Shown: positions 6,534 to 27,024, counted from the first letter of the stretch. The stretch: 32,000 bases of DNA from Synechococcus sp. A15-24 (GCF_014280195.1 NZ_CP047960.1:210001-242000), one strand, 5' to 3'. Notes: generated from the sequence alone by a model not told the origin. Numbers and translations: made by a program.

Positions 6534-6613
6534 GGCGGTCGGTTGGGCGTCAGCAGGGCGAGCCTATGACTGAGCCGGGAGCCCTACGGTTCACCCATCA
6601 CAGCCGGGTTGGC

Positions 6614-10045: not shown

Positions 10046-10759
10046 ATGTCTGTCGCTCTGGCTGCCCAGCTCCGGGAAGGCACCAAGAAATCCCACACGA
10101 TGGCCGAAAACACCGGCTTCGTTAGTTGCTTCCTAAAGGGAGTGGTGGACAAGGCCAGCTACCGCAAGCTGGTGGCTGATCTCTACTTCGTGTACACCGC
10201 AATGGAAGAGGAGATCTCAAAGCTGGGCGATCACCCCGTGGTCGGTCCGGTGGGCATGCAGGAGCTCAACCGACGTGAGGCCCTGGAGCAGGATCTCGTC
10301 TATTACTTCGGTGCTGGCTGGAAGGATCAGATTCAACCGTCTCCCTCAGCAGCGGCTTATGTGGAGCGGATCCATGCCGTGGCTCAGGAGTCACCGGAGT
10401 TGCTGGTGGGTCACCACTACACCCGCTACCTCGGCGACCTCTCCGGTGGCCAGATCCTCAAGAACATTGCCCAGAAGGCGATGAACATGGATGGAGATGA
10501 TGGCCTCCACTTCTATGTCTTCAACGACATCTCCGACGAGAAGGCTTTCAAGACCACCTATCGCTCCACGATGGATGAGCTGCCCATCGATCAGGCGATG
10601 GCCGATCGGATCGTGGAAGAAGCCAATCACGCCTTCCACCTGAACATGAACATGTTCAAGGAACTGGAGGGCAACCTGGTGGCTGCCATCGGCAAGGTGC
10701 TGTTCGGCTTCCTGACCCGTCGCCAGCGCGCCGGCAGCACGGAGGCTGCGGCAGCCTGA
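10046..10759 (+). CDS. ho1: heme oxygenase 1
   Basis: The N-terminus MSVALAAQLREGTKKSHTMAENTGFVSCFLKGVVDKASYRKLVADLYFVYTAMEEE is near-canonical cyanobacterial HO-1, including the proximal His in TKKSH. Confidence 0.95.
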   Translation: MSVALAAQLREGTKKSHTMAENTGFVSCFLKGVVDKASYRKLVADLYFVYTAMEEEISKLGDHPVVGPVGMQELNRREALEQDLVYYFGAGWKDQIQPSPSAAAYVERIHAVAQESPELLVGHHYTRYLGDLSGGQILKNIAQKAMNMDGDDGLHFYVFNDISDEKAFKTTYRSTMDELPIDQAMADRIVEEANHAFHLNMNMFKELEGNLVAAIGKVLFGFLTRRQRAGSTEAAAA

Positions 10760-10763
10760 TTCC

Positions 10764-11804
10764 GTGCCCACCACGCTCATTCGCATCCTCGTCCCCGGCA
10801 CCAGCAAACGGTTCCGTTGCGGTGGTCTGAGTGTGGAGCTGCAGACGGCTCGACTGTTGTCGAGCCTCTGTGCAACGGAGCTGGTGACCTACCGGGAGCG
10901 GCATCAGGATCATCCATGTCTGGATGATCTACTCACCGTTGAGCCTTCTCGGCCGGAGGTGCTCTGGATCGTCAGCTGGGGATTTGATGTTCCGGCATTG
11001 GTCCGTCGGTTACGGAGCCATCGCGTGGCTTATCACGCCCACAGCAGTGGGTATGGCTTCACGCTTCCCCCTGGGGTGCCGGTGCTGGCGGTGAGTCGGA
11101 ACACCCTGGGCTACTGGGGTGATCGTTGCCCCCGCAACCCTTTGTTGCTGGTGCCCAATGCCATCGAGCCCGGTTGGCTGGAACGAGGCGCCCGGGGTAG
11201 TGCGGAGCGCCGTCCAATCGATGTGTTGGTGCAGGCCCGCAAGAGCAGTCGGTACGTGTTGGATCAGCTGGTCCCTGCCTTGCGGCAGCAAGGGCTCAGG
11301 GTGGAGGTTCAAAGCGGCTGGGTCGATGACCTCGTTGATCTGTTCAACCGCTCCTGCGTTTATCTCTACGACTCAGCCGAGTACTGGCGTGGACGCGGCG
11401 TTACGGAGGGCTTTGGCTTACCACCGCTGGAGGCCATGGCCTGCGGTTGTGTGGTCTTCGGCAGCCTGAATCACGCTCTGGCCGACCACGGTGATCCTGG
11501 TCGGATGGTCCATCAGATCGGCTGCGGGCGCTTGCTCTTTGATGTGCGCCGGATCCAGCACGCCGTCCGCGATCCAGCTGGGTGGAGACCACCGGCAGCA
11601 GCTCTGAATGCTGTGCTGGAGGGGAGCTCAGAGGCGTCCCTGCTGCAGCGTTGGACGGTGGCGCTGGATCAGCTGGATGCCCTGGACCTGGCTGAAGGTC
11701 CGCTGCTCAGCAGCCCACCCACCTGGCAACTGAGGCTGCAGCAGCTCTGCCAACGGCTGCAGCGAGTGGTCGATCGGTTGCCCGGCTGGCCTTCCACCCG
11801 CTGA
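10764..11804 (+). CDS. GT-B fold glycosyltransferase (GT4-like)
   Basis: The C-terminal motif EGFGLPPLEAMACGCVVF is the GT4-type E-x7-E region. The GTG start lies 4 nt after the ho1 stop. Confidence 0.65.
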   Translation: MPTTLIRILVPGTSKRFRCGGLSVELQTARLLSSLCATELVTYRERHQDHPCLDDLLTVEPSRPEVLWIVSWGFDVPALVRRLRSHRVAYHAHSSGYGFTLPPGVPVLAVSRNTLGYWGDRCPRNPLLLVPNAIEPGWLERGARGSAERRPIDVLVQARKSSRYVLDQLVPALRQQGLRVEVQSGWVDDLVDLFNRSCVYLYDSAEYWRGRGVTEGFGLPPLEAMACGCVVFGSLNHALADHGDPGRMVHQIGCGRLLFDVRRIQHAVRDPAGWRPPAAALNAVLEGSSEASLLQRWTVALDQLDALDLAEGPLLSSPPTWQLRLQQLCQRLQRVVDRLPGWPSTR

Positions 11805-11871
11805 GGGCAGTGGTTCGCACGCCTTAACGTCCTCAAATGCAGGCTGGCGTTGCGTCTGCCCGATCGCTGCC

Positions 11872-13689
11872 ATGCCCTTGCGAAGCCAGACCTGGAGAGA
11901 TCTGCGGCGCCTGCTGAAGGAGTTGCCACCCAGCCGGCTTCGTTTTCTTGTGGTGGTGCTGGTGGCCTCTTTCCTGCAGGGCCTGATGGACATCCTGCTT
12001 GTGGGTCTGTTGGCGCGGCTGGTGGGCTTGATGGCCGGCGTGAAACTGGCGGATCAGATCCCCGGCATCCACGTCTTTGGTGGGGGCATGCTCGATCAGG
12101 CCGGCTGGTTGCTGGGGTTGTTGGTCGTGGCGTTCTGGCTCACCTCCGGCCTGCGCTTTGGTGTGGCATTTCTGCAGAGCATGCTCAGCGCCGAGATCTG
12201 GAATGACCTGGTCAATAAGGTCTACCGGAATCTGATGCTGCAGGACTATGAGTTCTTCACGCATCACCGCACCGCCAATCTTTCCGAGAGCTTCAACCGG
12301 ATCCTGAACAAGGTTTCCACGACCGTGGTCAGTCCAATGATCACGATTGCGGGCAATGCCCTTTCGGTGCTGGTGCTGCTGAGCGGTGTGGTGCTGGTTC
12401 TGGGCACCCCGGCTCTGCTGATGTTCGGTTTGATGCTTGGTTCCTATGCCTTGGCATCGAAGCTGATCATTCCCTATCTGCGCTTCGCCACCAAGCAGCG
12501 GGTGCGCTACTCCAGACGGATCCATTTGCTGCTGATGGAATCACTGCGATCGATGCGAGATGTGCAGCTCTATTCCGCCGAGCGATTCTTCATCAATCGC
12601 TTCGCCAGCGATGGCGTTGTGGCCAAGCGCTACGACCGGTTGACCAAATTGCTGCCGGATGTGCCTCGCTATGTGATCGAGCCAGCTGGAATCACGATTC
12701 TGTTTCTCGTGGGCCTCGGACCCTCCGTTCTCAGTGGGGATGCCGTCAGCGTGCGGGAGGCCATTCCCACCCTGGCAGCGGTGCTCGGTACCTTGCTGCG
12801 CATCTCCGGACCCCTGCAGAACACCTTCCGCAATATCAACAAACTTCGCGGCGGTTTGCCTGAAATTCAGGATGCACTGGAGTTGCTGGACCTTCGCCCC
12901 AAGCGCCTGAACACCAGCGCACCGGGGGTCCCCACGCCCAGTGGTGTGATGCCACGGCAGTTCATTCAGCTGCGTGATGTGAGCTTCAGCTACTCCGGCA
13001 GCGAGGAATCTGTGCTGTCGAACGTTGATCTCACCATTCCCGTTGGATCACGCATCGCCCTGGTCGGTCGCACGGGCAGCGGCAAAACCACCCTGGCCCA
13101 TCTGCTGCTTGGTCTGTTCCGCCCCAGCAGTGGTGATCTCACCCTGGACGGTCTTCCCCTGAATGAGGAAGAGTTGCCGGCCTGGCAGGGCAACTGCGCC
13201 CTGGTGCCCCAGGACATCCGACTGCTGGATGCCAGCATCCGCGACAACGTCGCCTTCGGCTGTGATCCGGAGGAGATTGAGGACGATCAGGTCTGGGCAG
13301 CACTGGAAGCAGCTCAATTCGAAGATGTCGTCAGCGCTATGCCGTATGGGCTTTTCACCATGATCGGTGAAAACGGGATCAAGCTGTCTGGCGGACAGCG
13401 TCAGCGGTTGTCTCTAGCCCGTGCCTTCTACCGCGATGCCAAGGTGCTGGTGCTGGATGAAGCCACCAGTGCTCTCGATAACAAGACCGAGCACGACGTA
13501 ATGCAGGCCCTGGATCTGGTGGGACGTCGCTGCACCACGATTGTGATCGCCCATCGCCTGTCCACCGTGCGCAAGTGCGATCGCATCTATGAGATCGAAG
13601 ACGGGCGGATCAAAGCGTCTGGTGATTTCGACACCCTCTGCGGCCTGTCGGACAGCTTCCGTGAGATGACCCGGTTCGAAACCGCCTGA
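11872..13689 (+). CDS. ABC exporter, fused TMD-NBD half transporter (MsbA/PglK/Wzk-like)
   Basis: An N-terminal domain of about 300 aa contains multiple TM helices. The NBD carries Walker A GRTGSGKTT, the signature LSGGQRQR, Walker B VLVLDEATSALD and the H-loop IAHRL. Confidence 0.9.
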   Translation: MPLRSQTWRDLRRLLKELPPSRLRFLVVVLVASFLQGLMDILLVGLLARLVGLMAGVKLADQIPGIHVFGGGMLDQAGWLLGLLVVAFWLTSGLRFGVAFLQSMLSAEIWNDLVNKVYRNLMLQDYEFFTHHRTANLSESFNRILNKVSTTVVSPMITIAGNALSVLVLLSGVVLVLGTPALLMFGLMLGSYALASKLIIPYLRFATKQRVRYSRRIHLLLMESLRSMRDVQLYSAERFFINRFASDGVVAKRYDRLTKLLPDVPRYVIEPAGITILFLVGLGPSVLSGDAVSVREAIPTLAAVLGTLLRISGPLQNTFRNINKLRGGLPEIQDALELLDLRPKRLNTSAPGVPTPSGVMPRQFIQLRDVSFSYSGSEESVLSNVDLTIPVGSRIALVGRTGSGKTTLAHLLLGLFRPSSGDLTLDGLPLNEEELPAWQGNCALVPQDIRLLDASIRDNVAFGCDPEEIEDDQVWAALEAAQFEDVVSAMPYGLFTMIGENGIKLSGGQRQRLSLARAFYRDAKVLVLDEATSALDNKTEHDVMQALDLVGRRCTTIVIAHRLSTVRKCDRIYEIEDGRIKASGDFDTLCGLSDSFREMTRFETA

Positions 13690-13696
13690 GCCGGTT

Positions 13697-15691
13697 ATGG
13701 CCGATGTCATCGTCCTGGCCACCGCCGACTGGGACCATCCCCTCTGGACCAACAAGCAGCACACCGCCGTCAGCCTTGCTGCCCTTGGCCACCGGGTTCT
13801 CTACGTGGAATCCCTGGGGCTGCGTCCACCGCGCAAGGGGGCCGCGGATCTGCCGCGGATGCTCAAGCGCCTGCGTCGGGTGTTGCGCTGGCCGCGGCGC
13901 GTGCAAAACGGTGTCTGGGTCTGGTCTCCTCTGGTGCTGCCTGGAGCCTCTCATCCCCTGGCGCAGCGGCTCAACCGATTGCTGGTGCGCAGAGGGCTTG
14001 ATCTCGCTCGGCGCTGGCTGAGGTTCCGTTCACCAATGCTGTGGACCTACAACCCGCTGACCCTTGAGGTCCTGTCGCTCTCGTCCTTTGCGGGTTCGAT
14101 TTATCACTGCGTCGATCGCATCCAGGCTCAGCCTGAAATGCCGGCGGACCGCATCGAACGGGCGGAACAGCAGCTCTGTCAGGCCGTCAATGTCGTGTTC
14201 ACGACGGCGCCGGAATTGCAGGCGTCTTTGGCACCGCTCAATCCCCACACCCATTTTTTTGGCAATGTGGCGGATTTCGACCACTTCGCCCGTGCATGGC
14301 GGGACCCGGGTCCTTGCCCTGACCCGCTGAAGAAATTGCCGTCACCCAGGCTGTTGTTCACCGGCGCCATCGATGCCTACAAGCTCGATCTGCCGTCGCT
14401 GACCCGACTGGCCCAGCGACGGCCCGACTGGACGTTTGTGCTCGTAGGGCCGGTGGGTGAGGCGGATCCCAGTACCGATGTGAGGGCCCTGCAGGCCTGC
14501 TCCAACATTCATCTGCCGGGCCCCCGCCCCTACGACGAGCTGCCGGATTGGTTGGCCCACAGCGACGTGGCGCTGCTGCCACTACGCCTCAATAGCTACA
14601 CCCGCAACATGTTCCCGATGAAATTTTTCGAGTACTTGGGGGCGGGGCGGCCCGTGGTGGCCACAGCGATTCCTTCATTGCAGTCCTTCGGGGAAGCTGC
14701 CCAGCTGGTGGAACCCTCCGAGGGAGCGTTTGAAACCGCCATCAGCCAGTGCCTGGAGGACCATGGTCCTTCCCTTGAAACACGCCTTTCCCTGGCGCAG
14801 CGTCACACCTATGTGTCCCGATCGCGCGGGATGGTTGCCGTGCTGGAGCAGCTGGGGTTGATCGATCAGCCCTGGTCTGGCGGATCTGCGTCGAGGAGCG
14901 TTCAAAAGATGCTGCAGCGCGGTGATGTGGATGCCGCCATCGGACTGATCCGCCTCCAGTGGCAACAGAACGCCGACGTGTCCGCCTTGCATCAGTTGCT
15001 GTTTCGTCGTGGTGCCCGGCCGCCCTCTGCTTCGCTGCAGGTCGCGTTGTTTGAGGCGCTGGCGAAGGACGCGTCCCTGCCGATGCCGGAGCGTTCCTAC
15101 AGCCAGATCGCTCTGACGTATCGCGTCCTCAAGGATCGTCGGGTCCACCTGTTGCAGTGCTGTCGGCTCGAGCTTGAGCCGTTGATCGCCCAGCTGGAGC
15201 AGGACCCTGGCACGTTGGTGTGTCAGCGCCCCAATCGACGTAACCGCGCCAAGTTGCTGATCTCTGCTTCGACGGCTCTCATGCTGGTTCTGGCCATGCA
15301 GGCAGATCGGAGTGCCCTGCTGCAGCTCAGCCAACGGATCGGCATTTGGTTGGATCGTCTCAACCTCGCAGCGATTCAGGCGGATGCTGCCTTCCGGATG
15401 ACCCGCAATCTCTGCCGCTGCCTGCTGGTGGAGGCGGTGGCGCAGCCAACCCAGCAGGCGCGGCTGCGACTGCAGCGTCTTATTGACTTCACCGGGCAGG
15501 AACGCTTTGTGGGTCATCCGGCGCAGGAGGATCACCGGGGCATCGCGAGCGCTTCCCTGGCCGATCTTGAGGAGGCATCGGCCGCTGGCTGCGATCGTCT
15601 CTGTGCCCTGATCAGTGATGAGCCACGGGATCTTGGTGTCACGGCTGCTGATCTGCTGACGCTGCTGCGGGACGATGGCCGTACCGCCTGA
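13697..15691 (+). CDS. GT-B glycosyltransferase (TuaH-like GT1/GT4) with an unrecognised C-terminal domain of about 265 aa
   Basis: The N-domain shows VIVLATADWDHPLWTNKQH, LLFTGAIDAYKLD and MFPMKFFEYLGAGRPVVA. The C-terminal part, from about aa 400, is a paralogue of the C-terminus of the 17992-19788 product. Confidence 0.8.
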   Translation: MADVIVLATADWDHPLWTNKQHTAVSLAALGHRVLYVESLGLRPPRKGAADLPRMLKRLRRVLRWPRRVQNGVWVWSPLVLPGASHPLAQRLNRLLVRRGLDLARRWLRFRSPMLWTYNPLTLEVLSLSSFAGSIYHCVDRIQAQPEMPADRIERAEQQLCQAVNVVFTTAPELQASLAPLNPHTHFFGNVADFDHFARAWRDPGPCPDPLKKLPSPRLLFTGAIDAYKLDLPSLTRLAQRRPDWTFVLVGPVGEADPSTDVRALQACSNIHLPGPRPYDELPDWLAHSDVALLPLRLNSYTRNMFPMKFFEYLGAGRPVVATAIPSLQSFGEAAQLVEPSEGAFETAISQCLEDHGPSLETRLSLAQRHTYVSRSRGMVAVLEQLGLIDQPWSGGSASRSVQKMLQRGDVDAAIGLIRLQWQQNADVSALHQLLFRRGARPPSASLQVALFEALAKDASLPMPERSYSQIALTYRVLKDRRVHLLQCCRLELEPLIAQLEQDPGTLVCQRPNRRNRAKLLISASTALMLVLAMQADRSALLQLSQRIGIWLDRLNLAAIQADAAFRMTRNLCRCLLVEAVAQPTQQARLRLQRLIDFTGQERFVGHPAQEDHRGIASASLADLEEASAAGCDRLCALISDEPRDLGVTAADLLTLLRDDGRTA

Positions 15692-15698
15692 ACCGTTG

Positions 15699-16850
15699 AT
15701 GCGCCGTGTCGTTCTCTACGTCGATTCCCTCAAGATCGGCGGAGCGGAGCGGGCCACCCTGACCTTTGCCCGCTGGCTGCGGCAGAACGGCTGGACGCCA
15801 ATCGTCTTGACACGCCAGTCATGCACCTTCGATTTCTATCCGATTCCCGCCGGGGTGGAGCGGGCGGTGGAGCCTCCCGATCCCCGGTGGCTGCGTCTGC
15901 TTGGCCGCTGGGGATTGCCCTGGCGGGTGCGTCGCTTGCGTCATTGGCTGCGCCAGCAGCAGGTGAGCCTGGCCATCGGCATGACCACCAAGCCGGCTGT
16001 GAAGTTGCTGTTGGCAGCCCATCCCCTGAGGATTCCATGTGCAGTGTCCGAGCGGAATTTCCCGCCGTTGAAACCGATGGCACTCCCCTGGGGGGTGCTG
16101 CGGCGGTTCAGTTACCGCTGGGCCTCGTTGCATATCGTGCAGACCCGGGCGACCGGAGAGTGGCTTAAGCAACAGTTGTCGGCAGAGCCGCAATTGCTGT
16201 TGCCCAACCCAGTGCAGTGGCCGCTGCCCCGGTTTGAACCCGAGCTTGATCCAGACCAGTGGCTGACTGAGGTTTGCGTCGCCTCGGACGCGCCGGTGTT
16301 GCTGGCAGCCGGCACCAAAGCCCACCAGAAGGGCTTCGATCTGCTGGTGCAGGCGTTTGCAGATCTGATTCCCCGTCATCCCAATCTTCAGCTCGTCATC
16401 CTTGGGCTGACCCAGGAGACTTATCACGACTCAGATCAGCAAAAGGCCCTGCGGCGACTGCTCAGGCGTGATCCCGAGGCACAGGCACAACTGCATTTCC
16501 CTGGTCGGGTGGGGAACATGGCGGATTGGTACCGACGCTGCACGTTGTTTGTGCTGCCCTCACGGTACGAAGGGTTCCCCAATGTGCTGCTGGAGGCGAT
16601 GGCAGAGGGCTGCTGTTGTCTGGCGGCCGACTGCCCCCATGGTCCTGCTGATCTGCTGCGCCACAACACTGATGGATTGCTGCTGCCGCGGCAGGCCACG
16701 GCGACACGCTGGTCTGAAGCCATCGATCGGCTGTTGCTGGATCCCAGTCAGCGTCAACGGCTCGAGGGGGAAGCGGCGACGGTGCGTGAGCGCTTTTCCG
16801 ACCGTGCCCTGGAAGCTCAGTTGATGCAGGCGCTGGGGCAGCTCGACTGA
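15699..16850 (+). CDS. glycosyltransferase family 4
   Basis: Motifs are MRRVVLYVDSLKIGGAER (N-terminal GT4 pattern) and LPSRYEGFPNVLLEAMAEGCCCLAAD. An alternative ATG at 15675 overlaps the upstream stop. The stop overlaps the next start as TGATG. Confidence 0.85.
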   Translation: MRRVVLYVDSLKIGGAERATLTFARWLRQNGWTPIVLTRQSCTFDFYPIPAGVERAVEPPDPRWLRLLGRWGLPWRVRRLRHWLRQQQVSLAIGMTTKPAVKLLLAAHPLRIPCAVSERNFPPLKPMALPWGVLRRFSYRWASLHIVQTRATGEWLKQQLSAEPQLLLPNPVQWPLPRFEPELDPDQWLTEVCVASDAPVLLAAGTKAHQKGFDLLVQAFADLIPRHPNLQLVILGLTQETYHDSDQQKALRRLLRRDPEAQAQLHFPGRVGNMADWYRRCTLFVLPSRYEGFPNVLLEAMAEGCCCLAADCPHGPADLLRHNTDGLLLPRQATATRWSEAIDRLLLDPSQRQRLEGEAATVRERFSDRALEAQLMQALGQLD

Positions 16851-17995
16851 TGCCTTTGCATGTTCTGCTGATGGCGCCTAGTCGGCGGGCTGCATCGGAG
16901 ACCTTCATCCGGGCCAATCTCCGCGGGTTGCCCTTCCGCAAAACCGCTGTTTTCGGGGATGAACGACCAATCGGCCGTCCTCTGGCTTTTGCCCATGGTC
17001 TGGCGGTGCTCCTCAGCAAGGCACTCACGGTGCTGGGTCTGCTGCGTCTGGCCTCTCTGCCGGCAGCCTGCACCACCTGGCTTCTGCTGCAGCGGCAACG
17101 CCCGGATGTGATGTTGGTGGATTTCGGTTTCCACGCCGTGCGGGTGATGGAGGCCGCTGCCTGGAGTGGGGTGCCGCTTGTGGTTCACTTCCGCGGCTCG
17201 GATGCCTCATCTGAATCGAAGTTTCAGCGGCTTCGCGATCGGTACCGGCGGCTGTTTCAACTCACCGATGGCGTGATCGTGAAGAGTCGGCCGATGCAGC
17301 AAGCACTGCAATCCCTAGGCGCTGAGTCGAAGTCGATGGTGATCAGTCCCTCGGGGGCGGATCCAGCCTTGTTCCATGGAGCGGATCCGGCCGCGGCACC
17401 CCCTCGCCTGTTGGCGGTGGGCCGTCTTGTGGCCAAGAAGGGACCGCTGCAGACCCTCCAGGCCTTCGCGCGCCTGGTGGCCAGACTCGACGAGCCGTTG
17501 CGCAGTCGAGCTGAGCTGCTGATCGTGGGCGAGGGCCCCCTGCAGGATCAGCTGCAGGAGTTCGTGGATGACCAACAGCTGTCTGGACAGGTGCAGCTGC
17601 GCGGACTTCGCTCGCCTCAGCAGATCGCTGATCTGATGCGATCAGCCCGTGGTTTTGTGCAGCATTCCGTGGTGGCGCCCGATGGCGACAGTGAGGGCAA
17701 CCCTGTTGCGGTGATGGAAGCGCAACTCTCTGGTCTTCCTGTGGTCGCCACACGCCATGCCGGGATCCCTGAAGTGGTGCTCGACGGCGACACCGGTTTG
17801 CTGGTGGAGGAAAAGGATGTGGAGGCCATGGCTCAGGCCATGGGCCGGCTTCTGCTGGAACCAGATCTCGCAGCGCGCCTTGGTGCAGCAGGACGGCGAC
17901 GGGTGGCCAATGGCTTCACCGTTCAGCACCATTGGTCCGCGGTGAGCGGTGTGTTGGAGCGGAGCGCTGCGGCCCGATCCCCCTGGACGCGATGA
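16850..17995 (+). CDS. glycosyltransferase family 4
   Basis: SEGNPVAVMEAQLSGLPVVATRHAGIPEVVLDGDTGLLVEE is the classical GT4 C-terminal motif. The stop overlaps the next ATG as ATGA at 17992-17995. Confidence 0.85.
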   Translation: MPLHVLLMAPSRRAASETFIRANLRGLPFRKTAVFGDERPIGRPLAFAHGLAVLLSKALTVLGLLRLASLPAACTTWLLLQRQRPDVMLVDFGFHAVRVMEAAAWSGVPLVVHFRGSDASSESKFQRLRDRYRRLFQLTDGVIVKSRPMQQALQSLGAESKSMVISPSGADPALFHGADPAAAPPRLLAVGRLVAKKGPLQTLQAFARLVARLDEPLRSRAELLIVGEGPLQDQLQEFVDDQQLSGQVQLRGLRSPQQIADLMRSARGFVQHSVVAPDGDSEGNPVAVMEAQLSGLPVVATRHAGIPEVVLDGDTGLLVEEKDVEAMAQAMGRLLLEPDLAARLGAAGRRRVANGFTVQHHWSAVSGVLERSAAARSPWTR

Positions 17996-19788
17996 CATCA
18001 ATGTCCCTGAGCATCGTCACCGTCTGCATGAACAGACGGCAGCATCTGATCGAGACCGCTGCACGTGTGGCGGCCTGGCCCCATCACAGCGAACATCTGA
18101 TTCTTGATTGGAGCAGCGCTGTACCCCTTCGGCGGGAAGAGTTGCCGGACGATGACCGTCTGCGCCTGGTGCGGGTGGATGGTGAGCGCGACTGGCACCT
18201 CTGCCGGTCCTACAACCTGGCGCTGCAGCTTGCCTGCGGTGATGTGCTGTTCAAGCTTGATGCCGATTGCTGGCCCCAACCGCAATTGGATCCAGCTGCG
18301 TTAAGGCGGGATGGATCCCTCTGCAGCTTCGGCAGCGGTCCGGATGGTCGTCTGGGGCAGTGGATTCTGGACAGGTCTTTGCTGGAGGCGGTCGGCGGCT
18401 TCAACGAATTTCTGGTCGGTTACGGCTTTGACGACAAGGACCTGAGGGCCCGTGTGATGGCCCGCTGTGGGGGAGAGGGGCCTCCGTTGCAAGCCCGACA
18501 GCTTGGGGTGATTGTTCATTCCGCCCTCGAACGGATCGGTGCAGGCCCGGAGAGTCGCCGGCTTCCCTTCCGCGAAGCCACCGCCCAGGCCCAGAAACGA
18601 GCCAGTGCCATGGCCAACCGTGTTTTGGCGGCGAGTTGTCCCTGGACGGCTCAGCGCAGGGGAAGTCGGTATCGCTGGAATGCCTCCAGTGCCTCTTGGC
18701 TGGTGGATGTGGAGTCGGTGCTGAGGGCTCCGATCGAGGTGGATGACGAGGTGCGGCGGCTGCGGCGCACGCTGTTCTGGGGTGAGTTGATGACCTTGCC
18801 GGCTGCGGTGGTGCGTCAGCTGCCGGAGCGCTTGCTGCCGGCGGATCAACGGGGACGGCTGCCCGTCGGTGCCCTGCATTGGTGGCTCTGGTACGTCATC
18901 CGACCGTTTTGGGCGTGGCCCAGCTGGTTGTTGGAGCAGATCCAGCTGCTGCGGGGCAGAAGACCAGGAGGCGACGGCAGCAAGGAGCGCTTCCGCACGG
19001 CCTATCGCAGCGGTGATGTGCAGGAGATGCTGTCCCTGCTGGCGGGAATGCAGCCGCGTCAGCGGCAGCAGTTGGTGGATCGACTGTTGTTCCAGCGGGC
19101 CCATCGTCCGGAGGATGTCGGCATCCAGATCGCTCTGCTGGAGGGATTGCAGCAGATGACGTTATTACCGGAGCATCAGCGGGCCTATGCCCTGATTGCT
19201 CTGGGTTGGACCCACCTGCGTGAGCGCTCTCCCGATCAGGCGAAACGCTGCGTTCGTCCCCTGGATGACGATATCCAACGGCTGCTGGCAGATCCGGAGA
19301 CGCTTCAGTGTGGACGCCGTAACCGGGAGAACCGGCTGAAGCGGCTGATCTCCTGCTGGAACCTGCTGGGACACCTGCATCTACAAGATGAGAACTGGTC
19401 CGCTCTGCTGGAGCTGAGTGGCTCCTCCAGCGATCTTCTGCATCGACTCGACCCCGATCAGCTCCCTGGCGATGTGTTGCTCCGGGTGAGCAGCAACTGG
19501 GCACGAACGCTGCTGTGGCAAGGGCCGCAACAACCCCAAATGTTGGTTGATGATCTTCAGCGGCTGCTGGCGATCATTGAGTCCGATCGCTGTGCAGCAT
19601 CCCGGCCTGAGGAGGATCACCGGGGGTTTGTGCGCAACTGGTTGCGTCGGATGTCCACGTGGATGGCAGACCCGTCCAAGCGGGTGTTGTCTCGCGAGGA
19701 GTTGTCTTCAGCCTTAACCGTTTCCACGTTGGATCTGATCGCTGCTGCTGAGCAGTACTGGCGTCAGGACGATCCGACACGCCCTTGA
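17992..19788 (+). CDS. GT-A (GT2-like) glycosyltransferase with an unrecognised C-terminal domain of about 265 aa
   Basis: LSIVTVCMNRRQHL, the DxD-like KLDADCWP and GYGFDDKDL match a GT2/galactosyltransferase-like N-domain. The C-terminal part is a paralogue of the 13697-15691 C-terminus. I prefer ATG 17992 over the track GTG at 17932. Confidence 0.75.
   Translation: MTSMSLSIVTVCMNRRQHLIETAARVAAWPHHSEHLILDWSSAVPLRREELPDDDRLRLVRVDGERDWHLCRSYNLALQLACGDVLFKLDADCWPQPQLDPAALRRDGSLCSFGSGPDGRLGQWILDRSLLEAVGGFNEFLVGYGFDDKDLRARVMARCGGEGPPLQARQLGVIVHSALERIGAGPESRRLPFREATAQAQKRASAMANRVLAASCPWTAQRRGSRYRWNASSASWLVDVESVLRAPIEVDDEVRRLRRTLFWGELMTLPAAVVRQLPERLLPADQRGRLPVGALHWWLWYVIRPFWAWPSWLLEQIQLLRGRRPGGDGSKERFRTAYRSGDVQEMLSLLAGMQPRQRQQLVDRLLFQRAHRPEDVGIQIALLEGLQQMTLLPEHQRAYALIALGWTHLRERSPDQAKRCVRPLDDDIQRLLADPETLQCGRRNRENRLKRLISCWNLLGHLHLQDENWSALLELSGSSSDLLHRLDPDQLPGDVLLRVSSNWARTLLWQGPQQPQMLVDDLQRLLAIIESDRCAASRPEEDHRGFVRNWLRRMSTWMADPSKRVLSREELSSALTVSTLDLIAAAEQYWRQDDPTRP

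Positions 19789-21805: not shown

Positions 21806-21809
<4 letters not shown>
20617..21809 (-). pseudogene. disrupted polytopic membrane protein (about 12-13 TM; Wzy/WaaL-like or GT-C-like), broken by a 17-bp tandem duplication and an in-frame TAA
   Basis: Three track ORFs (21501-21809, 21046-21690, 20617-21000) join into one frame of 392 codons. Removing one 17-bp repeat copy gives 1193-17=1176 nt, which is 3 x 392. Reading through TAA 21043-21045 completes the join. RRWWCLAAG is encoded in both overlapping frames. ATG 21809 overlaps the upstream stop as ATGA. Confidence 0.65.
21638..21681. repeat. 17-bp tandem repeat, 2.6 copies (CCAGCGGCGAGACACCA x2 plus CCAGCGGCGA)
   Basis: Direct reading gives copy 1 at 21638-21654, an identical copy 2 at 21655-21671, and a partial copy at 21672-21681. 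Confidence 0.95.
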
Positions 21810-23724
<1,915 letters not shown>

Positions 23725-23768: not shown

Positions 23769-26162
23769 ATGAGCTTTCTGGCCGGCCTCAACGACGCCCA
23801 GCGCAGGGCGGTGGACCACCACGAAGGGCCCCTGCTGGTGGTGGCCGGTGCCGGCAGCGGCAAGACCCGTGCCCTCACCCACCGGATTGCCCATCTGATC
23901 GGCGAGCACGGCGCTGATCCGGCTCAGATCCTGGCGGTGACCTTCACCAACAAGGCCGCCCGTGAGATGAAGGAACGGCTGGAGGTGCTGCTGGCTCAGA
24001 AGCTGGCCCAGAGCCAGTACGGCCAGCCCTGGAGCACCCTGCCGCCGGTGGATCAACGGCAGTTGCGCTCACGCATCTACCGCGAGGTCAGCAAGGAGTT
24101 GTGGATCGGCACCTTCCACGCCCTGTTCGCGCGGATGCTCCGCTACGACATCGACAAGTTCAAGGACGCCGAGGGGCTGAGCTGGACCAAGCAGTTCTCG
24201 ATCTACGACGAGGCCGATGCCCAGAGCCTGGTGAAGGAGATCGTGACCCAGGAACTGCAGCTCGATCCAAAGCGATTTGAGCCAAAGAAGACCCGCTGGG
24301 CCATCAGCAACGCCAAGAACCAGGGCTGGTTGCCGGATCAGCTTGAGGCCAATGCTGAAGGTCAGCGGGGCAAGCTCACCGCCGATGTGTACCGCCGCTA
24401 CCGCAGGGCGCTGGCGGCGAACAATGCGCTGGATTTCGATGATCTGCTGTTGCTGCCTGTGCAGCTGCTGCAGCAGAACGAGCAGGTGCGTAGCTACTGG
24501 CACCGCCGCTTCGCCCATGTGTTGGTGGATGAATATCAAGACACCAACCGCACCCAGTACGACCTAATCAAGCTGTTGGTCACCGATGGCAAGGACCCGC
24601 AGACCTACAACGACTGGAGCGGACGCTCGGTGTTCGTGGTGGGAGATGCCGACCAGAGCATCTACAGCTTCCGCGCCGCCGACTTCACGATCCTGATGGG
24701 TTTCCAGGAGGACTTCGGTGATCAGGCGCCGGACGACGCCACCCGCACGATGGTGAAGCTGGAGGAGAACTACCGCTCCACCGCCACGATCCTGGCGGCG
24801 GCCAATGCCCTGATCGCCAAAAACAGCGAGCGGATCGACAAGGTGCTGCGACCCACCCGCGGCGAAGGGGAGTTGATCAGCCTCACCCGATGCGATGACG
24901 AAATCGCCGAGGCCGAGGCGGTGGTGCATCGGCTGCGGACGATGGAGGCGGCCAACCCCGAATTGAGCTGGGGCGATATGGCCGTGCTGTATCGCACCAA
25001 TGCTCAGTCCCGCTCGATCGAGGAATCGCTGGTGCGCTGGGGCATCCCTTACATCGTTGTTGGGGGACTTCGTTTTTATGACCGGCGGGAGATCAAGGAT
25101 CTGCTGGCCTATCTGCGGCTGTTGGTGAATCCGGCGGACACCGTCAGCCTGCTGCGGGTGATCAATGTGCCCAAACGGGGCATCGGCAAGACCACGATTC
25201 AGCGGCTCACTGATGCCGCCAATCAATTGGGAATTCCGCTTTGGGATGTGGTGAGTGATGCCGAAGCCGTGCGATCCCTTGGGGGACGGTCAGCCCGTGG
25301 TCTGCTGCAGTTCTGTGAGTTGCTCCACGACCTGCGCCGTCAGGTGCAGGTCGTGGCTCCGTCCGAGCTGATCCAGCAGGTGATGGAAAAGAGCGGCTAC
25401 GTCAGCGAACTGATCGCGGAAGGCACCGATGAAGCGGAGGAACGTCGCCGCAACCTGCAGGAATTGGTCAACGCGGCTCTTCAGTACCAGGAGGAGAACG
25501 AGGAGGGGGATCTCGAAGGCTTCCTGGCCACGGCGGCGTTGTCGAGCGATGCCGACAGCAAGGACACCGCAGCGGATCGGGTCACCCTGATGACCTTGCA
25601 CAGCAGCAAGGGCCTCGAATTTCCTGTGGTCTGCCTGGTGGGGCTGGAGCAGGGCCTGTTTCCCAGCTACCGCTCCCTCGATGATCCGGCCTCCCTGGAG
25701 GAGGAGCGCCGCCTCTGCTACGTCGGCATCACCCGCGCCAAGGAGCGCCTGTTTCTCTCCCATGCCAGTGAGCGTCGGCTCTGGGGTGGCATGCGCGAGG
25801 CCGCCGTGCCGTCGGTGTTTCTTTCAGAGCTGCCGGAGGCCCTGGTGCAGGGGGATCTCCCCCAGAGCGGTGGGGCGGCCCTGCGCCGGGAAAGACGCCT
25901 GGAGCGGCTCACCCGTGTGGATCGCGACAAGCCGACGACCGCTCCGGCCAATGCGGTGCGCCGCCGCCAGGCGGGTCCGGCCCCCGGGCGCAGCTGGAAC
26001 GTTGGGGATCGCGTCACCCATGCCAGCTTCGGGGTTGGGGAGATCACCCACACCTTCGGTAGTGGCGAGAAGGTGTCGATCGCGGTGAAGTTCGCTGGGA
26101 TGGGGCCGAAGATCCTTGATCCGCGGTTGGCGCCGATCGAGCCGATTGCCGCCGATGACTGA
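23769..26162 (+). CDS. pcrA: ATP-dependent DNA helicase PcrA/UvrD family
   Basis: Motifs are LNDAQRRAVDHHEGPLLVVAGAGSGKTRALTHRIA, VLVDEYQDTN, VGDADQSIYSFRAA, LEENYRST, TLHSSKGLEFPVV and YVGITRAKERL, plus a C-terminal GDRVTHASFGVGEI Tudor-like tail. Confidence 0.95.
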   Translation: MSFLAGLNDAQRRAVDHHEGPLLVVAGAGSGKTRALTHRIAHLIGEHGADPAQILAVTFTNKAAREMKERLEVLLAQKLAQSQYGQPWSTLPPVDQRQLRSRIYREVSKELWIGTFHALFARMLRYDIDKFKDAEGLSWTKQFSIYDEADAQSLVKEIVTQELQLDPKRFEPKKTRWAISNAKNQGWLPDQLEANAEGQRGKLTADVYRRYRRALAANNALDFDDLLLLPVQLLQQNEQVRSYWHRRFAHVLVDEYQDTNRTQYDLIKLLVTDGKDPQTYNDWSGRSVFVVGDADQSIYSFRAADFTILMGFQEDFGDQAPDDATRTMVKLEENYRSTATILAAANALIAKNSERIDKVLRPTRGEGELISLTRCDDEIAEAEAVVHRLRTMEAANPELSWGDMAVLYRTNAQSRSIEESLVRWGIPYIVVGGLRFYDRREIKDLLAYLRLLVNPADTVSLLRVINVPKRGIGKTTIQRLTDAANQLGIPLWDVVSDAEAVRSLGGRSARGLLQFCELLHDLRRQVQVVAPSELIQQVMEKSGYVSELIAEGTDEAEERRRNLQELVNAALQYQEENEEGDLEGFLATAALSSDADSKDTAADRVTLMTLHSSKGLEFPVVCLVGLEQGLFPSYRSLDDPASLEEERRLCYVGITRAKERLFLSHASERRLWGGMREAAVPSVFLSELPEALVQGDLPQSGGAALRRERRLERLTRVDRDKPTTAPANAVRRRQAGPAPGRSWNVGDRVTHASFGVGEITHTFGSGEKVSIAVKFAGMGPKILDPRLAPIEPIAADD

Positions 26163-27024
26163 GCCCGGATTGCTGCTTATCCGTGGTCTGGGCCACAGCG
26201 GCAGCACCATCCTTGATCTGGCCCTCGGAGCCCATCCGCAGCTGATTGGCCTGGGGGAGGCGGTGCGGGTGCTGGAGCGACCCCATCTCGGCGAAGAGCA
26301 CAAGGGGCCGCAGCAACTGCGGGGCGATCTCCGCTTTGAACGTCGCTGCACCTGTGGTGAGCTGGCCGGCGACTGTCCGGTATGGGGACCGCTGCTGGCG
26401 TGGTTGCCAGCTCACGACGATCGCCCCCTGCCGGAGAAGTTCAACCGCTTGATTGAGCCGTTGACCGCTTCGTCGCCCCGCTGGTTGGTGGAGTCGTTTC
26501 AGGCGGATGAGCAGCTGCTGGAGGCTCAAGCACTGGGTCGTCCGGTGCGGGTGATTCAGCTCACCCGTGATGTGCGCTCCTGGGTGCATTCAGAATCGCG
26601 GCGAGGTGTGGAACGCCATGGCCGCGGCGGAACTGTGGGTTGGCGCTCAATGCTGCGCTGGTGGCGCATCAATCGCTGTTGGGAGCAACGCTTGAACCGC
26701 TCCGGTTGTGCAGTGTTTCGGCTCGGTTACGAGGAGTTGGCCCTGGCTCCGGAGCAGGCCCTTCAGCAGCTCTGCGCTTGGCTTGAGGTTGGCTTCGATC
26801 CGGCGATGCTGCAGCCGGGGCTGAACTCCAGCAGTCACATCGTCAGTGGCAACCGCATGCGGTTCGACCCCGCTCAGAGCCAGGCGATTCGTTACGACGC
26901 GGCCTGGCTCTCTTCTGCGGCCCTATCTCTTCGGGTCGCGCCGTTGCTGCCAGCCGTGGCTCGCCTCAACCGCCGGCTCGTTTACAGCAATGGTTTGCTC
27001 GGAAGTGTCTGGCCCTCGGCCTAA
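26155..27024 (+). CDS. sulfotransferase family protein
   Basis: LLLIRGLGHSGSTILD is P-loop-like (5'-PSB) and VIQLTRDVRSWVHS matches a 3'-PB motif. A CTCG...C..W Cys cluster is also present. ATG 26155 overlaps the pcrA 3' end by 8 nt; the track start at 26116 lies deeper inside pcrA. Confidence 0.65.
   Translation: MTEPGLLLIRGLGHSGSTILDLALGAHPQLIGLGEAVRVLERPHLGEEHKGPQQLRGDLRFERRCTCGELAGDCPVWGPLLAWLPAHDDRPLPEKFNRLIEPLTASSPRWLVESFQADEQLLEAQALGRPVRVIQLTRDVRSWVHSESRRGVERHGRGGTVGWRSMLRWWRINRCWEQRLNRSGCAVFRLGYEELALAPEQALQQLCAWLEVGFDPAMLQPGLNSSSHIVSGNRMRFDPAQSQAIRYDAAWLSSAALSLRVAPLLPAVARLNRRLVYSNGLLGSVWPSA

What the first reader, a model, noticed from the sequence alone, without database searches (positions are those of the whole stretch)
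14900..19785. Two glycosyltransferases of different fold share an unrecognised paralogous C-terminal domain of about 265 aa
The product of 13697-15691 has a GT-B/TuaH-like catalytic domain. The product of 17992-19788 has a GT-A/GT2-like catalytic domain. Each carries a long C-terminal extension, encoded at roughly 14900-15688 and 18990-19785. The two extensions are collinear. The following motifs occur in the same order in both: GDV(D/Q); LLF(R/Q)R..RP; (V/I)AL(F/L)E.L; LP...R.Y..IAL; DP.TL.C.R.NR.NR.K.LIS; SALL(Q/E)LS; L.RL; R...N..R.LL; LQRL(I/L); P.(Q/E)EDHRG. I do not recognise the domain, which looks helical and is Leu/Arg/Gln-rich. A shared non-catalytic module grafted onto two unrelated transferases in one operon with an ABC exporter suggests a common docking, scaffolding or substrate/chain-length-sensing function. 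The coiled-coil or carbohydrate-binding modules that coordinate ABC-dependent O-antigen assembly are a loose analogy only. This is my best candidate for a genuinely undescribed component.
Basis: seen in the sequence. Interest (0 to 1): 0.72.

Follow-up and report, generated by a model that had tools for sequence, protein, structure and literature searches.

The report
Unannotated helical tail shared by glycosyltransferases
Two sugar-adding enzymes of different fold in one cyanobacterial cell-surface glycan operon carry the same unannotated helical domain of about 270 residues, which in related genomes moves between enzymes or is a separate gene, so it is a real new accessory module whose exact job is still unknown.

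Summary
The C-terminal ~270 aa of the GT-B protein (13697-15691) and of the GT-A protein (17992-19788) are homologous: BLASTP E=1e-26, 34% identity, shuffle z=39.6.

No Pfam or NCBIfam model matches the domain. A profile finds only 116 clusters among 1.84 billion representatives, and those that carry a name are called hypothetical.

AlphaFold2 gives a confident all-alpha array of helical hairpins (pLDDT 92.6). It has no significant PDB match; the best are TPR domains at TM 0.40. No TPR signature or internal repeat is detectable in the sequence.

In 29 picocyanobacterial loci the operon is conserved (heme oxygenase, GT, MsbA/PglK-type ABC exporter, GT-B, GT4s, sulfotransferase). The tail appears fused to GT-B, fused to GT-A, or as a separate gene beside either enzyme. 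Its paralogue clades A and B track their GT partner.

About a dozen polar residues are invariant (RP; NR.NR.K..S; R...N..R; EDH) and sit at helix N-termini. The domain is basic.

My best reading (about 0.4) is a cytoplasmic, membrane-proximal binding module for an anionic feature of the lipid-linked glycan, acting in cis or in trans. The rivals are a protein scaffold and a new enzyme. Docking specifically to the ABC exporter is weakened.

The parts
10046..10759 (+). Heme oxygenase, first gene of the co-directional cluster (context)
   Evidence: Pfam Heme_oxygenase 3.4e-83. Adjacency to the next GT gene is conserved in the related loci whose contigs reach that far.
10764..11804 (+). Weak GT-B-type glycosyltransferase ('GT1w') with a conserved basic C-terminal helix
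   Evidence: Sub-threshold Glyco_trans_1_4 and Glycos_transf_1 hits, E~1.5e-5. Orthologues found in 20 loci. C-termini listed.
11872..13689 (+). Fused TMD-NBD ABC exporter of the MsbA/PglK/HepA type
   Evidence: ABC_membrane 1e-13 and ABC_tran 7.7e-30. Best NCBIfam hits are MsbA, HepA and PglK, all below their equivalog cut-offs.
13697..14851 (+). GT-B (GT4/TuaH-like) catalytic part of protein 4, aa 1-385
   Evidence: Glyco_trans_1_4 5.4e-16 at aa 217-355; TuaH model 1.5e-23 at aa 148-352.
14852..15688 (+). Tail B: helical-hairpin domain, clade B paralogue (profile core about 14891-15688)
   Evidence: AlphaFold2 pLDDT 92.6, pTM 0.91, 15 helices.
15233..15265 (+). Most conserved motif of tail B, NRRNRAKLLIS (family signature NR.NR.K.L[IV]S), in the loop and N-terminal turns of helix 132-149
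   Evidence: Translation. Invariant columns; conservation mapped on secondary structure.
15675..16850 (+). GT4 glycosyltransferase (GT4a)
   Evidence: Glycos_transf_1 8.9e-31 and Glyco_transf_4 4.7e-12.
16850..17995 (+). GT4 glycosyltransferase (GT4b)
   Evidence: Glycos_transf_1 1.5e-31.
17992..18720 (+). GT-A catalytic part of protein 7 (aa 1 to about 243), with DAD at aa 90-92
   Evidence: Sub-threshold Glycos_transf_2 hit, 1.2e-4. AlphaFold2 beta/alpha domain. 73 Foldseek PDB hits at E<=1e-3; the 50 listed are all glycosyltransferases.
18874..18957 (+). Trp-rich linker helix LHWWLWYVIRPFWAWPSWLLEQIQLLRG, a predicted membrane-interface anchor rather than a TM helix
   Evidence: Helix 294-322 in the model. 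Wimley-White interfacial energy -12.9 kcal/mol, with Kyte-Doolittle below the TM range. Translation. Unfused GT-A proteins of Cyanobium end right after this helix.
18979..19785 (+). Tail A: helical-hairpin domain, clade A paralogue
   Evidence: pLDDT is 88-98 over aa 331-550, lower towards the C-terminus.
19321..19353 (+). Signature motif of tail A, NRENRLKRLIS
   Evidence: Translation. Invariant N444, R445, K450 and S454 in A6.
26116..27024 (+). Sulfotransferase. Its orthologue directly follows GT4b in most related operons (context)
   Evidence: Sulfotransfer_3 2e-10. Orthologue positions.
27760..28539 (+). CMP-Kdo/CMP-ulosonate synthetase-type cytidylyltransferase (context)
   Evidence: CTP_transf_3 6.2e-44. 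The orthologue lies within about 5-10 kb of the tail gene in 9 related picocyanobacterial loci. The same Pfam family lies beside 3 of 6 informative distant tail homologues.

Best explanation
The tail is a previously unannotated, autonomous, all-alpha helical-hairpin domain.

Proposed role. It works on the cytoplasmic face of the inner membrane as a ligand-binding accessory subunit of a glycan assembly line. The assembly line consists of the GTs, an MsbA/PglK-type ABC exporter and a sulfotransferase. I propose that its invariant, basic patch binds an anionic feature common to the pathway intermediates. Candidate features are the (pyro)phosphate of the lipid carrier, or an acidic or sulfated sugar of the growing chain. 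By binding it, the tail would hold the acceptor next to whichever transferase carries it, or next to the whole complex when it is a separate protein.

Why two copies here. Each paralogue (A or B) stays physically or genetically coupled to its own GT. One copy per operon appears to be enough, so the two copies in this window are a lineage-specific doubling.

Shown here: homology of the two tails, the fold class, the conserved patch at sequence level, domain mobility, the genomic contexts, and a cytoplasmic location (it is fused to NDP-sugar GTs without an intervening TM helix).

Inferred, not shown: that the conserved residues form one site, the identity of the ligand, and that the domain is non-catalytic.
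For: 1. Autonomous fold. The AlphaFold2 model has pLDDT 92.6 and pTM 0.91 and is all helical hairpins. In the full-length GT-A protein both domains are confident but pTM is only 0.55, which fits a tethered module.

2. It can work in trans. The same domain is fused to GT-B, fused to GT-A, or encoded as a 280-380 aa gene immediately after the unfused GT-A or near the unfused GT-B. Clades A and B of the tail tree follow the GT partner whether fused or split.

3. Redundancy. Many operons have a single copy of either type. L027, a close relative of the window, has a GT-B without a tail plus GT-A-tail.

4. A conserved polar patch. Invariant or near-invariant residues are R-P, N-R-x-N-R-x-K-x-L-[IV]-S, R-x3-N-x2-R and E-D-H-R, across paralogues that are only about 30% identical. 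R56, P57, R129, S138, N186 and R189 persist in distant proteobacterial members. All of these sit in loops or first turns at the N-termini of successive helices, a typical anion-binding geometry.

5. The domain is basic: mean net charge +4, pI 8.8.

6. Membrane proximity. A Trp-rich interfacial helix precedes tail A, and hydrophobic or basic N-terminal segments precede standalone tails. No true TM segment is predicted.

7. Glycan context throughout the family. This includes a Wzy_C/O-antigen-ligase-like gene inserted between GT-B and the tail in L002/L004, a sulfotransferase inside the operon, and KpsF, KdsA or CTP_transf_3 genes beside clade C and distant members.
Against: - No coordinates, PAE or electrostatics were available, so clustering of the conserved residues into a single site is inferred from secondary-structure positions only.
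- No ligand was tested.
- The best structural neighbours (KLC TPR, 14-3-3, LGN, gamma-SNAP; E>=0.09, TM<=0.42) bind peptides, which favours a protein partner.
- Twelve invariant polar residues including Glu, His and Ser would also suit an enzyme.
- One distant member (Marinovum, L037) lies in a housekeeping context without glycan genes.
- 'At least one tail per operon' is subject to ascertainment bias, because the loci were found through the tail itself.
Confidence: 0.4

Rival explanations
1. Protein-protein scaffold or docking module. The solenoid would bind a peptide or surface of another pathway protein (the ABC exporter NBD, a GT4, GT1w or the sulfotransferase) and assemble a membrane-associated multi-enzyme complex, possibly setting the order of reactions or the chain length.
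For: The closest folds are peptide-binding TPR/14-3-3-type solenoids. Asn/Arg/Lys residues on successive helices resemble peptide or carboxylate clamps (my own knowledge of Hop and importin-type clamps). The domain is fused to or adjacent to different GTs of one operon. The flexible tether fits a docking arm (pTM 0.55).
Against: The invariant patch is shared by clades A, B and C, and part of it by Marinovum-type homologues that lack this operon. A lineage-specific protein partner would not explain that. Clade C loci (L020, L025) have no ABC gene within 10 kb. None of the gene tables of the distant contexts shows an ABC-exporter gene next to the homologue; the one ABC_tran gene seen (L037) lies five genes away on the other strand. 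The structural matches are not significant (E>=0.09).
Confidence: 0.25
2. A new all-alpha catalytic domain. It would be an enzyme that adds, removes or processes a non-standard group, such as a terminal ulosonic-acid (Kdo-like), phosphate or sulfate cap, or a lyase- or hydrolase-type editing activity. One such step would be needed per glycan, which would explain one (sometimes two) copies per operon and fusion to either GT, as in multidomain O-antigen enzymes.
For: About 12 invariant polar residues including Glu, His, Ser, Asn and 4-5 Arg, across paralogues about 30% identical. Both copies in the window keep all of them. There is a recurrent neighbourhood with CMP-ulosonate synthetase-type genes (CTP_transf_3) in 3 of 6 informative distant contexts and within about 5-10 kb of the tail gene in the window and in 9 related picocyanobacterial loci. 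KpsF/KdsA and sulfotransferases also recur. Precedent exists for terminator domains fused to GTs (WbbB, WbdD; my own knowledge).
Against: The fold is a hairpin array. No listed Foldseek hit is an enzyme of alpha/alpha-toroid or other all-alpha type. No known catalytic motif is recognisable. Pfam, NCBIfam and PDB sequence searches are all negative. Only R, P, R, S, N, R are kept family-wide, which is more typical of binding than of acid/base chemistry.
Confidence: 0.2
3. Regulatory sensor. The tail would bind a nucleotide or metabolite (for example PAP/PAPS, a nucleotide sugar or a second messenger) and tune the activity of the attached or neighbouring GT.
For: An Arg-rich patch at helix N-termini suits phosphates. 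A sulfotransferase lies in the operon. A DHH/DHHA2 phosphoesterase gene sits next to the Marinovum homologue.
Against: The evidence is purely circumstantial, and the DHH neighbour is a single case. There is no similarity to any known nucleotide-binding domain.
Confidence: 0.07
4. Not a specific feature: a chance similarity of Leu/Arg-rich helical tails, or a generic TPR repeat.
For: Composition is biased (Leu 11-20%, Arg 9-14%) and the nearest folds are TPR-like.
Against: E=1e-26 with composition correction, and z=39.6 against shuffles. The family profile recovers 66 clusters at E<=1e-10. No TPR Pfam model matches: 2-3 of 61 members have hits at E>=0.004. No internal repeats by hhalign. The synteny is specific.
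Confidence: 0.01

Closest known systems
TPR superhelix of O-GlcNAc transferase / SPINDLY (GT41: TPR + GT-B)
   Same: A helical-hairpin solenoid is covalently attached to a GT-B glycosyltransferase. Conserved Asn/Arg-type residues on successive helices are thought to hold the acceptor near the active site. This is an accessory, non-GT domain.
   Different: In OGT the TPRs are N-terminal, are recognisable 34-residue repeats and bind protein acceptors. Here the domain is C-terminal, has no TPR signature or internal repeat, also occurs on a GT-A enzyme and as a separate gene, and sits in a lipid-linked glycan/ABC exporter operon.
LapB (YciM): inner-membrane-anchored cytoplasmic TPR protein coordinating LPS assembly
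   Same: A cytoplasmic helical-repeat protein held at the inner membrane by an N-terminal hydrophobic segment and acting with envelope-glycolipid enzymes. Standalone tails (e.g. L004 9686-10822) have a similar layout. LapB appears among the Foldseek hits (rank 7).
   Different: The match is not significant (E=0.2, TM 0.30). There is no rubredoxin domain and no TPR motifs, the conserved residues differ, and there is no link to LpxC/FtsH.
TPR scaffolds of exopolysaccharide secretion systems (AlgK, PelB, BcsC, PgaA)
   Same: Helical-repeat modules encoded in polysaccharide operons that organise modifying enzymes and export.
   Different: Those are periplasmic or outer-membrane associated and belong to synthase-dependent systems. 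This domain is cytoplasmic (fused to NDP-sugar GTs, with no TM helix between) and sits with an ABC exporter.
Accessory modules of ABC-transporter-dependent O-antigen assembly (WbdD/WbbB coiled coils and terminator domains; the Wzt carbohydrate-binding module)
   Same: Non-polymerising modules attached to pathway enzymes that couple chain completion to ABC export. One module serves the whole pathway.
   Different: Different folds (coiled coil, kinase/methyltransferase, GT99, beta-sandwich CBM). The exporter here is a fused MsbA/PglK-type half-transporter rather than Wzm/Wzt. No terminator chemistry has been shown.
Kinesin light chain TPR domain (best structural hit, PDB 5oj8/6ejn)
   Same: A right-handed array of about six helical hairpins of similar size.
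   Different: TMq is only 0.37-0.40, rmsd 8-12 A, 10-16% identity, E>=0.09. This is a generic fold-class resemblance only.

Membership tests
Tetratricopeptide repeat (TPR) proteins | Sequence matches TPR profile models | tested here: not met
   No TPR hit on either window tail. Among 61 family members at E<=1, only 2-3 have isolated TPR_14, TPR_19 or TPR_10 hits (best 0.004), mostly in N-terminal extensions.
Tetratricopeptide repeat (TPR) proteins | Tandem, mutually homologous repeats of about 34 residues | tested here: not met
   hhalign of each hairpin profile against every other, and of the N-half against the C-half: all probabilities are <1%.
Tetratricopeptide repeat (TPR) proteins | Helix-turn-helix hairpins stacked into a solenoid (fold level) | tested here: inconclusive
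GT-B glycosyltransferases, GT4/TuaH-like (protein 13697-15691, N-terminal part) | Match to GT-B C-terminal domain models above curated thresholds | tested here: met
   Glyco_trans_1_4 59.6 bits (cut-off 27), Glycos_transf_1 33.4 bits (26.4), Glyco_trans_1_2 30.5 bits (25).
TuaH (teichuronic acid biosynthesis) equivalog | Score above the NCBIfam equivalog cut-off | tested here: not met
   83.3 bits against a cut-off of 550. It is TuaH-like only in the sense of best hit.
GT-A glycosyltransferases, GT2-like (protein 17992-19788, N-terminal part) | Pfam GT2 model above the gathering score | tested here: not met
   Glycos_transf_2 22.5 bits against 23.3, and Glyco_transf_7C 21.3 against 23: just below threshold.
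GT-A glycosyltransferases, GT2-like (protein 17992-19788, N-terminal part) | GT-A Rossmann-like fold with a DxD motif after a central strand | tested here: met
   AlphaFold2 beta/alpha domain. 73 Foldseek PDB hits at E<=1e-3; the 50 listed are all glycosyltransferases, including 6yv7, ppGalNAc-T2, K4CP, beta4GalT7 and WrtF. D90-A91-D92 follows strand 85-89.
MsbA/PglK-type (type IV) ABC exporters | Fused ABC_membrane TMD plus ABC_tran NBD in one polypeptide | tested here: met
   ABC_membrane 52.1 bits and ABC_tran 104.7 bits. The MsbA, HepA and PglK equivalog cut-offs are not reached, so the substrate is unknown.
Wzm/Wzt ABC-transporter-dependent O-antigen systems with CBM or coiled-coil ruler | Separate Wzm permease and Wzt ATPase, Wzt C-terminal CBM, coiled-coil terminator | tested here: not met
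   The exporter is a fused half-transporter. The tail model is a globular hairpin array, not a coiled coil or beta-sandwich.
The new tail family itself (working definition) | About 260-290 aa all-alpha domain with the ordered motifs LLF.R..RP, NR.NR.K.L[IV]S, R...N..R.L and (Q/E)EDH | tested here: met
   Both window copies carry all motifs. The family profile scores them at E~6e-104, though both are part of the profile's seed.

The most novel reading that the evidence does not exclude
The tail is a new all-alpha enzyme family of glycan assembly. For example, it could be a capping or editing activity that uses or recognises CMP-activated ulosonic acids (Kdo-like) or sulfate/phosphate groups and marks the finished lipid-linked chain for export by the MsbA/PglK-type transporter. 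That would explain the dozen invariant polar residues, the need for one copy per operon regardless of which GT carries it, and the recurrent CTP_transf_3/KpsF/KdsA/sulfotransferase neighbourhoods from cyanobacteria to proteobacteria.
Probability: 0.15. Interest if true: 0.8.

Novelty: new variant of a known kind. Interest (0 to 1): 0.5.

Why it matters
Marine and freshwater picocyanobacteria (Synechococcus, Cyanobium) are among the most abundant phototrophs. Their surface glycans control phage adsorption and grazing, yet the assembly pathways are almost uncharacterised. A 2015 review notes few experimental studies and an LPS core lacking Kdo (PMC4390846).

This work defines a conserved operon (ABC exporter, four to five GTs, sulfotransferase) and a new domain family that is its mobile accessory component. 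The natural fusion, fission and loss variants amount to a ready-made genetic experiment. They predict that the tail works in trans and that one copy suffices. They also nominate a few Arg/Asn/Ser/Glu/His residues for mutagenesis.

The family deserves a curated model, because everything that carries a name in the databases is currently 'hypothetical protein'. If the tail turns out to bind the lipid-linked intermediate or to be catalytic, it would add a new part to the ABC-dependent glycan assembly toolkit.

Tried and rejected
1. Known-family assignment failed. I ran Pfam on the window proteins, on 10 distant members and on all 61 members of A4 at E<=1, and NCBIfam on the window proteins and on 10 diverse members. 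Nothing consistent came back.

2. The PDB sequence profile search hit only designed helical repeats through a low-complexity stretch, which I judge spurious.

4. An internal-repeat search by hhalign was negative.

5. tblastn of the tail against phage records, and of a distant member against plasmid records, found no match.

6. The third word-indexed homologue search, using the distant-branch alignment, returned only 2 proteins. With a subset it gave 2 loci.

7. P0012 and P0013 first looked like standalone tails after a missing GT-B. tblastn shows the GT-B part in the same frame upstream, so they are gene-call truncations and I rejected them as evidence.

8. I guessed from a 'PPKTASQT' motif that the 280-aa ORF at 19814-20656(-) is a sulfotransferase. 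There was no Pfam hit at E<=1, no similarity to the operon sulfotransferase of L032, and no homologue in any related locus, so I dropped the idea.

9. A conserved acidic C-terminal peptide on operon proteins, as a possible 'clamp' ligand, gave nothing convincing. The ABC exporter C-terminus is conserved, but in the ordinary way for an NBD.

10. The N-terminal regions of the distant fusions P0117 and P0123 could not be identified.

11. Literature searches found no description of this operon or domain.

Full report
**1. What is in the window**

Nucleotides 10046-19788 hold a tight, co-directional gene cluster on the + strand. The window is 61% G+C. The genes are:
- heme oxygenase (10046-10759);
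- a weak GT-B-type transferase, 'GT1w' (10764-11804);
- a fused TMD-NBD ABC exporter whose best matches are MsbA, HepA and PglK, all below their equivalog cut-offs (11872-13689);
- a 664-aa protein with a GT4/TuaH-like GT-B domain (13697-15691);
- two GT4 enzymes (15675-16850 and 16850-17995);
- a 598-aa protein with weak GT2 hits (17992-19788).

Intergenic gaps are at most 67 nt, and three junctions overlap.

Downstream lie two minus-strand ORFs without family matches, then PcrA, a sulfotransferase (26116-27024), a GT8-like gene, a CMP-Kdo-synthetase-type cytidylyltransferase (27760-28539) and KatG. Upstream are a GT2 gene, a GtrA-YdjC fusion, a phosphorylase and isocitrate dehydrogenase.

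**2.

The last ~270 residues of the two long proteins align collinearly. BLASTP gives E=1e-26, 34% identity over 229 residues and five gaps. The Smith-Waterman score is 248 against 37 +/- 5.3 for 500 shuffles, z=39.6. There is little or no DNA-level similarity, so the duplication looks old.

The two catalytic domains do have different folds:
- The first is a bona fide GT-B by Pfam.
- The second misses the GT2 gathering score by a bit, but its AlphaFold2 model (pLDDT 87) gives 73 significant Foldseek hits. The 50 listed are all glycosyltransferases, e.g. PcManGT, ppGalNAc-T2 and K4CP, and it has a DAD motif after strand 85-89.

**3. The domain is unknown to curated resources and is rare**

- No Pfam or NCBIfam model matches either tail, or 61 and 10 diverse family members at relaxed thresholds.
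- A PDB sequence-profile search gives only spurious designed repeats.
- Word-indexed searches of 5.8 billion clusters return 14 and 24 proteins. None has a Pfam domain, and those that carry a name are called 'hypothetical protein'.
- An exhaustive profile search of 1.84 billion representatives finds 116 clusters at E<=1e-3, 66 at <=1e-10 and 31 at <=1e-30.
- Named members are 'hypothetical protein' from Synechococcus and from the alphaproteobacterium Marinovum.

**4. Structure**

With a 61-sequence alignment, AlphaFold2 predicts tail B with pLDDT 92.6 and pTM 0.91. The model is all-alpha, with 15 helices forming six to seven hairpins.

Foldseek finds nothing at E<=1e-3 in the PDB or in BFVD. 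The top hits are TPR-type solenoids (kinesin light chain, 14-3-3, LGN, gamma-SNAP, LapB) at E>=0.09 and TM<=0.42. The hairpins are not detectably homologous to one another.

In the full-length GT-A protein both domains are confident, but pTM is 0.55. The domains are joined by a long Trp-rich helix (LHWWLWYVIRPFWAWPSWLL). That helix has a very favourable interfacial partitioning energy (-12.9 kcal/mol) and sub-TM hydrophobicity. I read it as a membrane-surface anchor. No TM helix separates GT and tail, so the tail is cytoplasmic.

**5. Comparative genomics**

A scan of one genome per species found 29 loci, 27 of them in records named as picocyanobacteria: Synechococcus WH7803, WH8017, MIT S9507, MIT S1220, Cyanobium, Vulcanococcus and Regnicoccus.

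Local profile searches show a conserved operon: heme oxygenase, GT1w, ABC exporter, GT-B, GT4s and usually a sulfotransferase, often followed within 5-10 kb by the GT8-like and KdsB-like genes.

The tail occurs in three architectures:
- (i) fused to GT-B, in proteins of about 740 aa (WH7803 and many others);
- (ii) fused to GT-A at the operon end (L005, L021, L026, L027 and the window);
- (iii) a separate 280-380 aa gene. This gene lies either directly after an unfused GT-A whose product ends just after the Trp-rich helix (Cyanobium/Vulcanococcus group), or after an unfused GT-B with a Wzy_C/O-antigen-ligase-like membrane protein inserted between them (L002, L004).

A neighbour-joining tree splits the tails into three clades:
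- Clade B is always with GT-B.
- Clade A is always with GT-A.
- Clade C is standalone, lying between a TupA-like ATP-grasp gene and a GT4 gene, with KpsF and a sulfotransferase just upstream. It has no ABC gene within 10 kb.

Two tails in the same genome were seen in four cases:
- the window (clades A and B);
- L005 (clades A and B);
- one single-cell genome, L001 plus L021 (clades A and B);
- L026 (clades A and C).

L027, a close relative, has a GT-B without a tail.

The tail is therefore an independent module that can act in trans and stays genetically coupled to a GT. One copy appears sufficient. The caveat is that the loci were found through the tail itself.

**6. Conserved site**

Across paralogues that are about 30% identical, about a dozen polar residues are invariant or nearly so:
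- F-x-R-x2-R-P;
- Y;
- N-R-x-N-R-x-K-x-L-[IV]-S;
- R-x3-N-x2-R;
- E-D-H-R.

R56, P57, R129, S138, N186 and R189 (tail B numbering) persist in the most distant members.

On the model's secondary structure, all of these lie in the loops or first turns at the N-termini of successive helices. This arrangement combines helix dipoles with Arg/Lys/Asn side chains. The domain is basic on average, with net charge +4 and pI 8.8.

**7. Distant members**

Proteins of about 290-330 aa share the core motifs (K..RP, R.D..H..FS, F[YF].T..N..RC), and there are a few fusions with TPR or with unidentified N-terminal domains. Their contexts are mostly glycan loci:

| Locus | Neighbouring genes |
|---|---|
| L031 | GT2-like, homologue, cytidylyltransferase+RraA, KdsA, KpsF |
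| L035 | HMGL-like, CTP_transf_3, HAD, sugar epimerases/dehydratases |
| L038 | CTP_transf_3 |
| L034 | Wzx, pyruvyl transferase and GT2 nearby |
| L036 | RgpF, GT2, WsaF-like GT |
| L037 (Marinovum) | housekeeping genes only |

A CMP-ulosonate-synthetase-type gene therefore lies beside three of six informative distant homologues. Such a gene also lies within about 5-10 kb of the tail gene in the window and in 9 related picocyanobacterial loci. That is far more often than expected for a gene present once or twice per genome; this last step is my own estimate, not a formal test.

**8. Interpretation**

The data establish a new, autonomous accessory domain of glycan assembly systems. They do not establish what it binds or does.

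I favour (about 0.4) a cytoplasmic, membrane-proximal module that binds an anionic feature of the lipid-linked intermediate. The feature could be the carrier (pyro)phosphate or an acidic or sulfated sugar. Binding would keep the intermediate at the transferase or complex. The reasons are:
- the invariant patch is shared by all paralogues and partly by relatives in other phyla;
- the geometry and charge suit anions;
- the domain works fused to either enzyme or alone.

The rivals are:
Fold class supports it. The conservation pattern and the lack of any ABC-exporter gene next to clade C and distant members weaken it.
- A new enzyme (0.2). It remains attractive because of the Glu/His/Ser/Asn/Arg set and the Kdo/sulfate neighbourhoods.
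- A metabolite sensor (0.07).
- Chance or plain TPR, which is excluded.

**9. Novelty and score**

Helical-repeat accessory domains on or beside glycosyltransferases are a known kind of thing (OGT, LapB, AlgK/PelB/BcsC). This family is new at the sequence level. It has no significant structural neighbour among solved structures, it carries a distinctive invariant polar patch, and it shows unusually clear fusion, fission and loss dynamics in an ecologically important group. I rate it a new variant of a known kind, with interest 0.5.

The most novel reading that the evidence does not exclude is a new all-alpha catalytic family linked to ulosonic-acid or sulfate capping: probability about 0.15, interest if true 0.8.

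Noticed in passing
window 10046-11804, and L002-L029 where the contig reaches that far: The heme oxygenase gene sits 4 nt upstream of the first glycosyltransferase of the operon. This adjacency (HO then GT1w then ABC exporter) is kept in the picocyanobacterial loci that reach that far. The coupling of pigment metabolism with a surface-glycan operon is unexplained.
   Followed up: partly
window 21806-23083 (-); L015 8311-9918 (+); L017, L021, L022, L026, L029: A conserved protein of about 300-425 aa without any Pfam or NCBIfam match lies near the operon in many loci. In L015 it lies inside the operon, between GT-A and the standalone tail. It may be another uncharacterised component of the pathway.
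   Followed up: partly
window 19814-20656 (-): A 280-aa ORF convergent with the operon end, with no family match and no homologue in any of the related loci. It is either lineage-specific or not a real gene. My motif-based guess of a sulfotransferase was not supported.
   Followed up: yes
L004 8470-9789 and the equivalent gap in L002 (8485-9698): In L004 a 439-aa polytopic protein matching Wzy_C (O-antigen ligase family) exactly at the gathering score is inserted between the unfused GT-B and the standalone clade B tail. This suggests the exported glycan is ligated to an acceptor on the periplasmic side. L002 has a gap of the same size at that position, but I did not read its ORFs.
   Followed up: partly
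window 26116-27024; L003 14436-15311; L006 14409-15284 and others: The Sulfotransfer_3 gene directly follows the last GT4 in most related operons. In the window it is displaced about 8 kb downstream, beyond the GT-A-tail gene, two minus-strand ORFs and pcrA. This points to a sulfated product and to a rearrangement or insertion in this lineage.
   Followed up: partly
window 18874-18957; C-termini of unfused GT-A proteins in L016-L029: A Trp-rich helix (LHWWLWYVIRPFWAWPSWLL) with very favourable interfacial partitioning belongs to the GT-A part. In Cyanobium-type genomes the gene fission point lies exactly after it.
   Followed up: yes
window 6566-8711: A GT2 gene (ArnC/GtrB-like by Pfam) and, on the opposite strand, a GtrA-YdjC fusion protein lie just upstream of the operon and are conserved in many related loci. 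They may form a polyprenyl-phosphate-sugar modification system.
   Followed up: no
window 2994-5048 (+): A 684-aa ORF with no Pfam match at E<=1e-3. I did not examine it further.
   Followed up: no
L001 1637-3654; L032 2791-4803; L033 3376-5406: In one single-cell genome and two metagenome contigs the GT-B-tail gene appears split or truncated. L001 shows a frame change, and the gene calls of L032 and L033 start at an internal Met although the GT-B part lies upstream in the same frame. These are probably sequencing or gene-calling artefacts. They inflate the apparent number of 'standalone' tails in protein databases.
   Followed up: yes
L037 8049-9861 (Marinovum chromosome): The proteobacterial homologue sits directly downstream of a DHH/DHHA2 phosphoesterase (NrnA-type, which in other bacteria also hydrolyses pAp, the by-product of sulfotransferases) and not in a glycan locus. 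This is a single case and its significance is unknown.
   Followed up: no
L025 8796-13437: The clade C tail is translationally coupled between a TupA-like ATP-grasp gene and a GT4 gene. It is followed by a 425-aa protein that looks like TPR plus a DXD sugar-binding transferase, and further on by a GT-C/PMT-like polytopic protein. This is a second, different glycan system that uses the same domain.
   Followed up: partly
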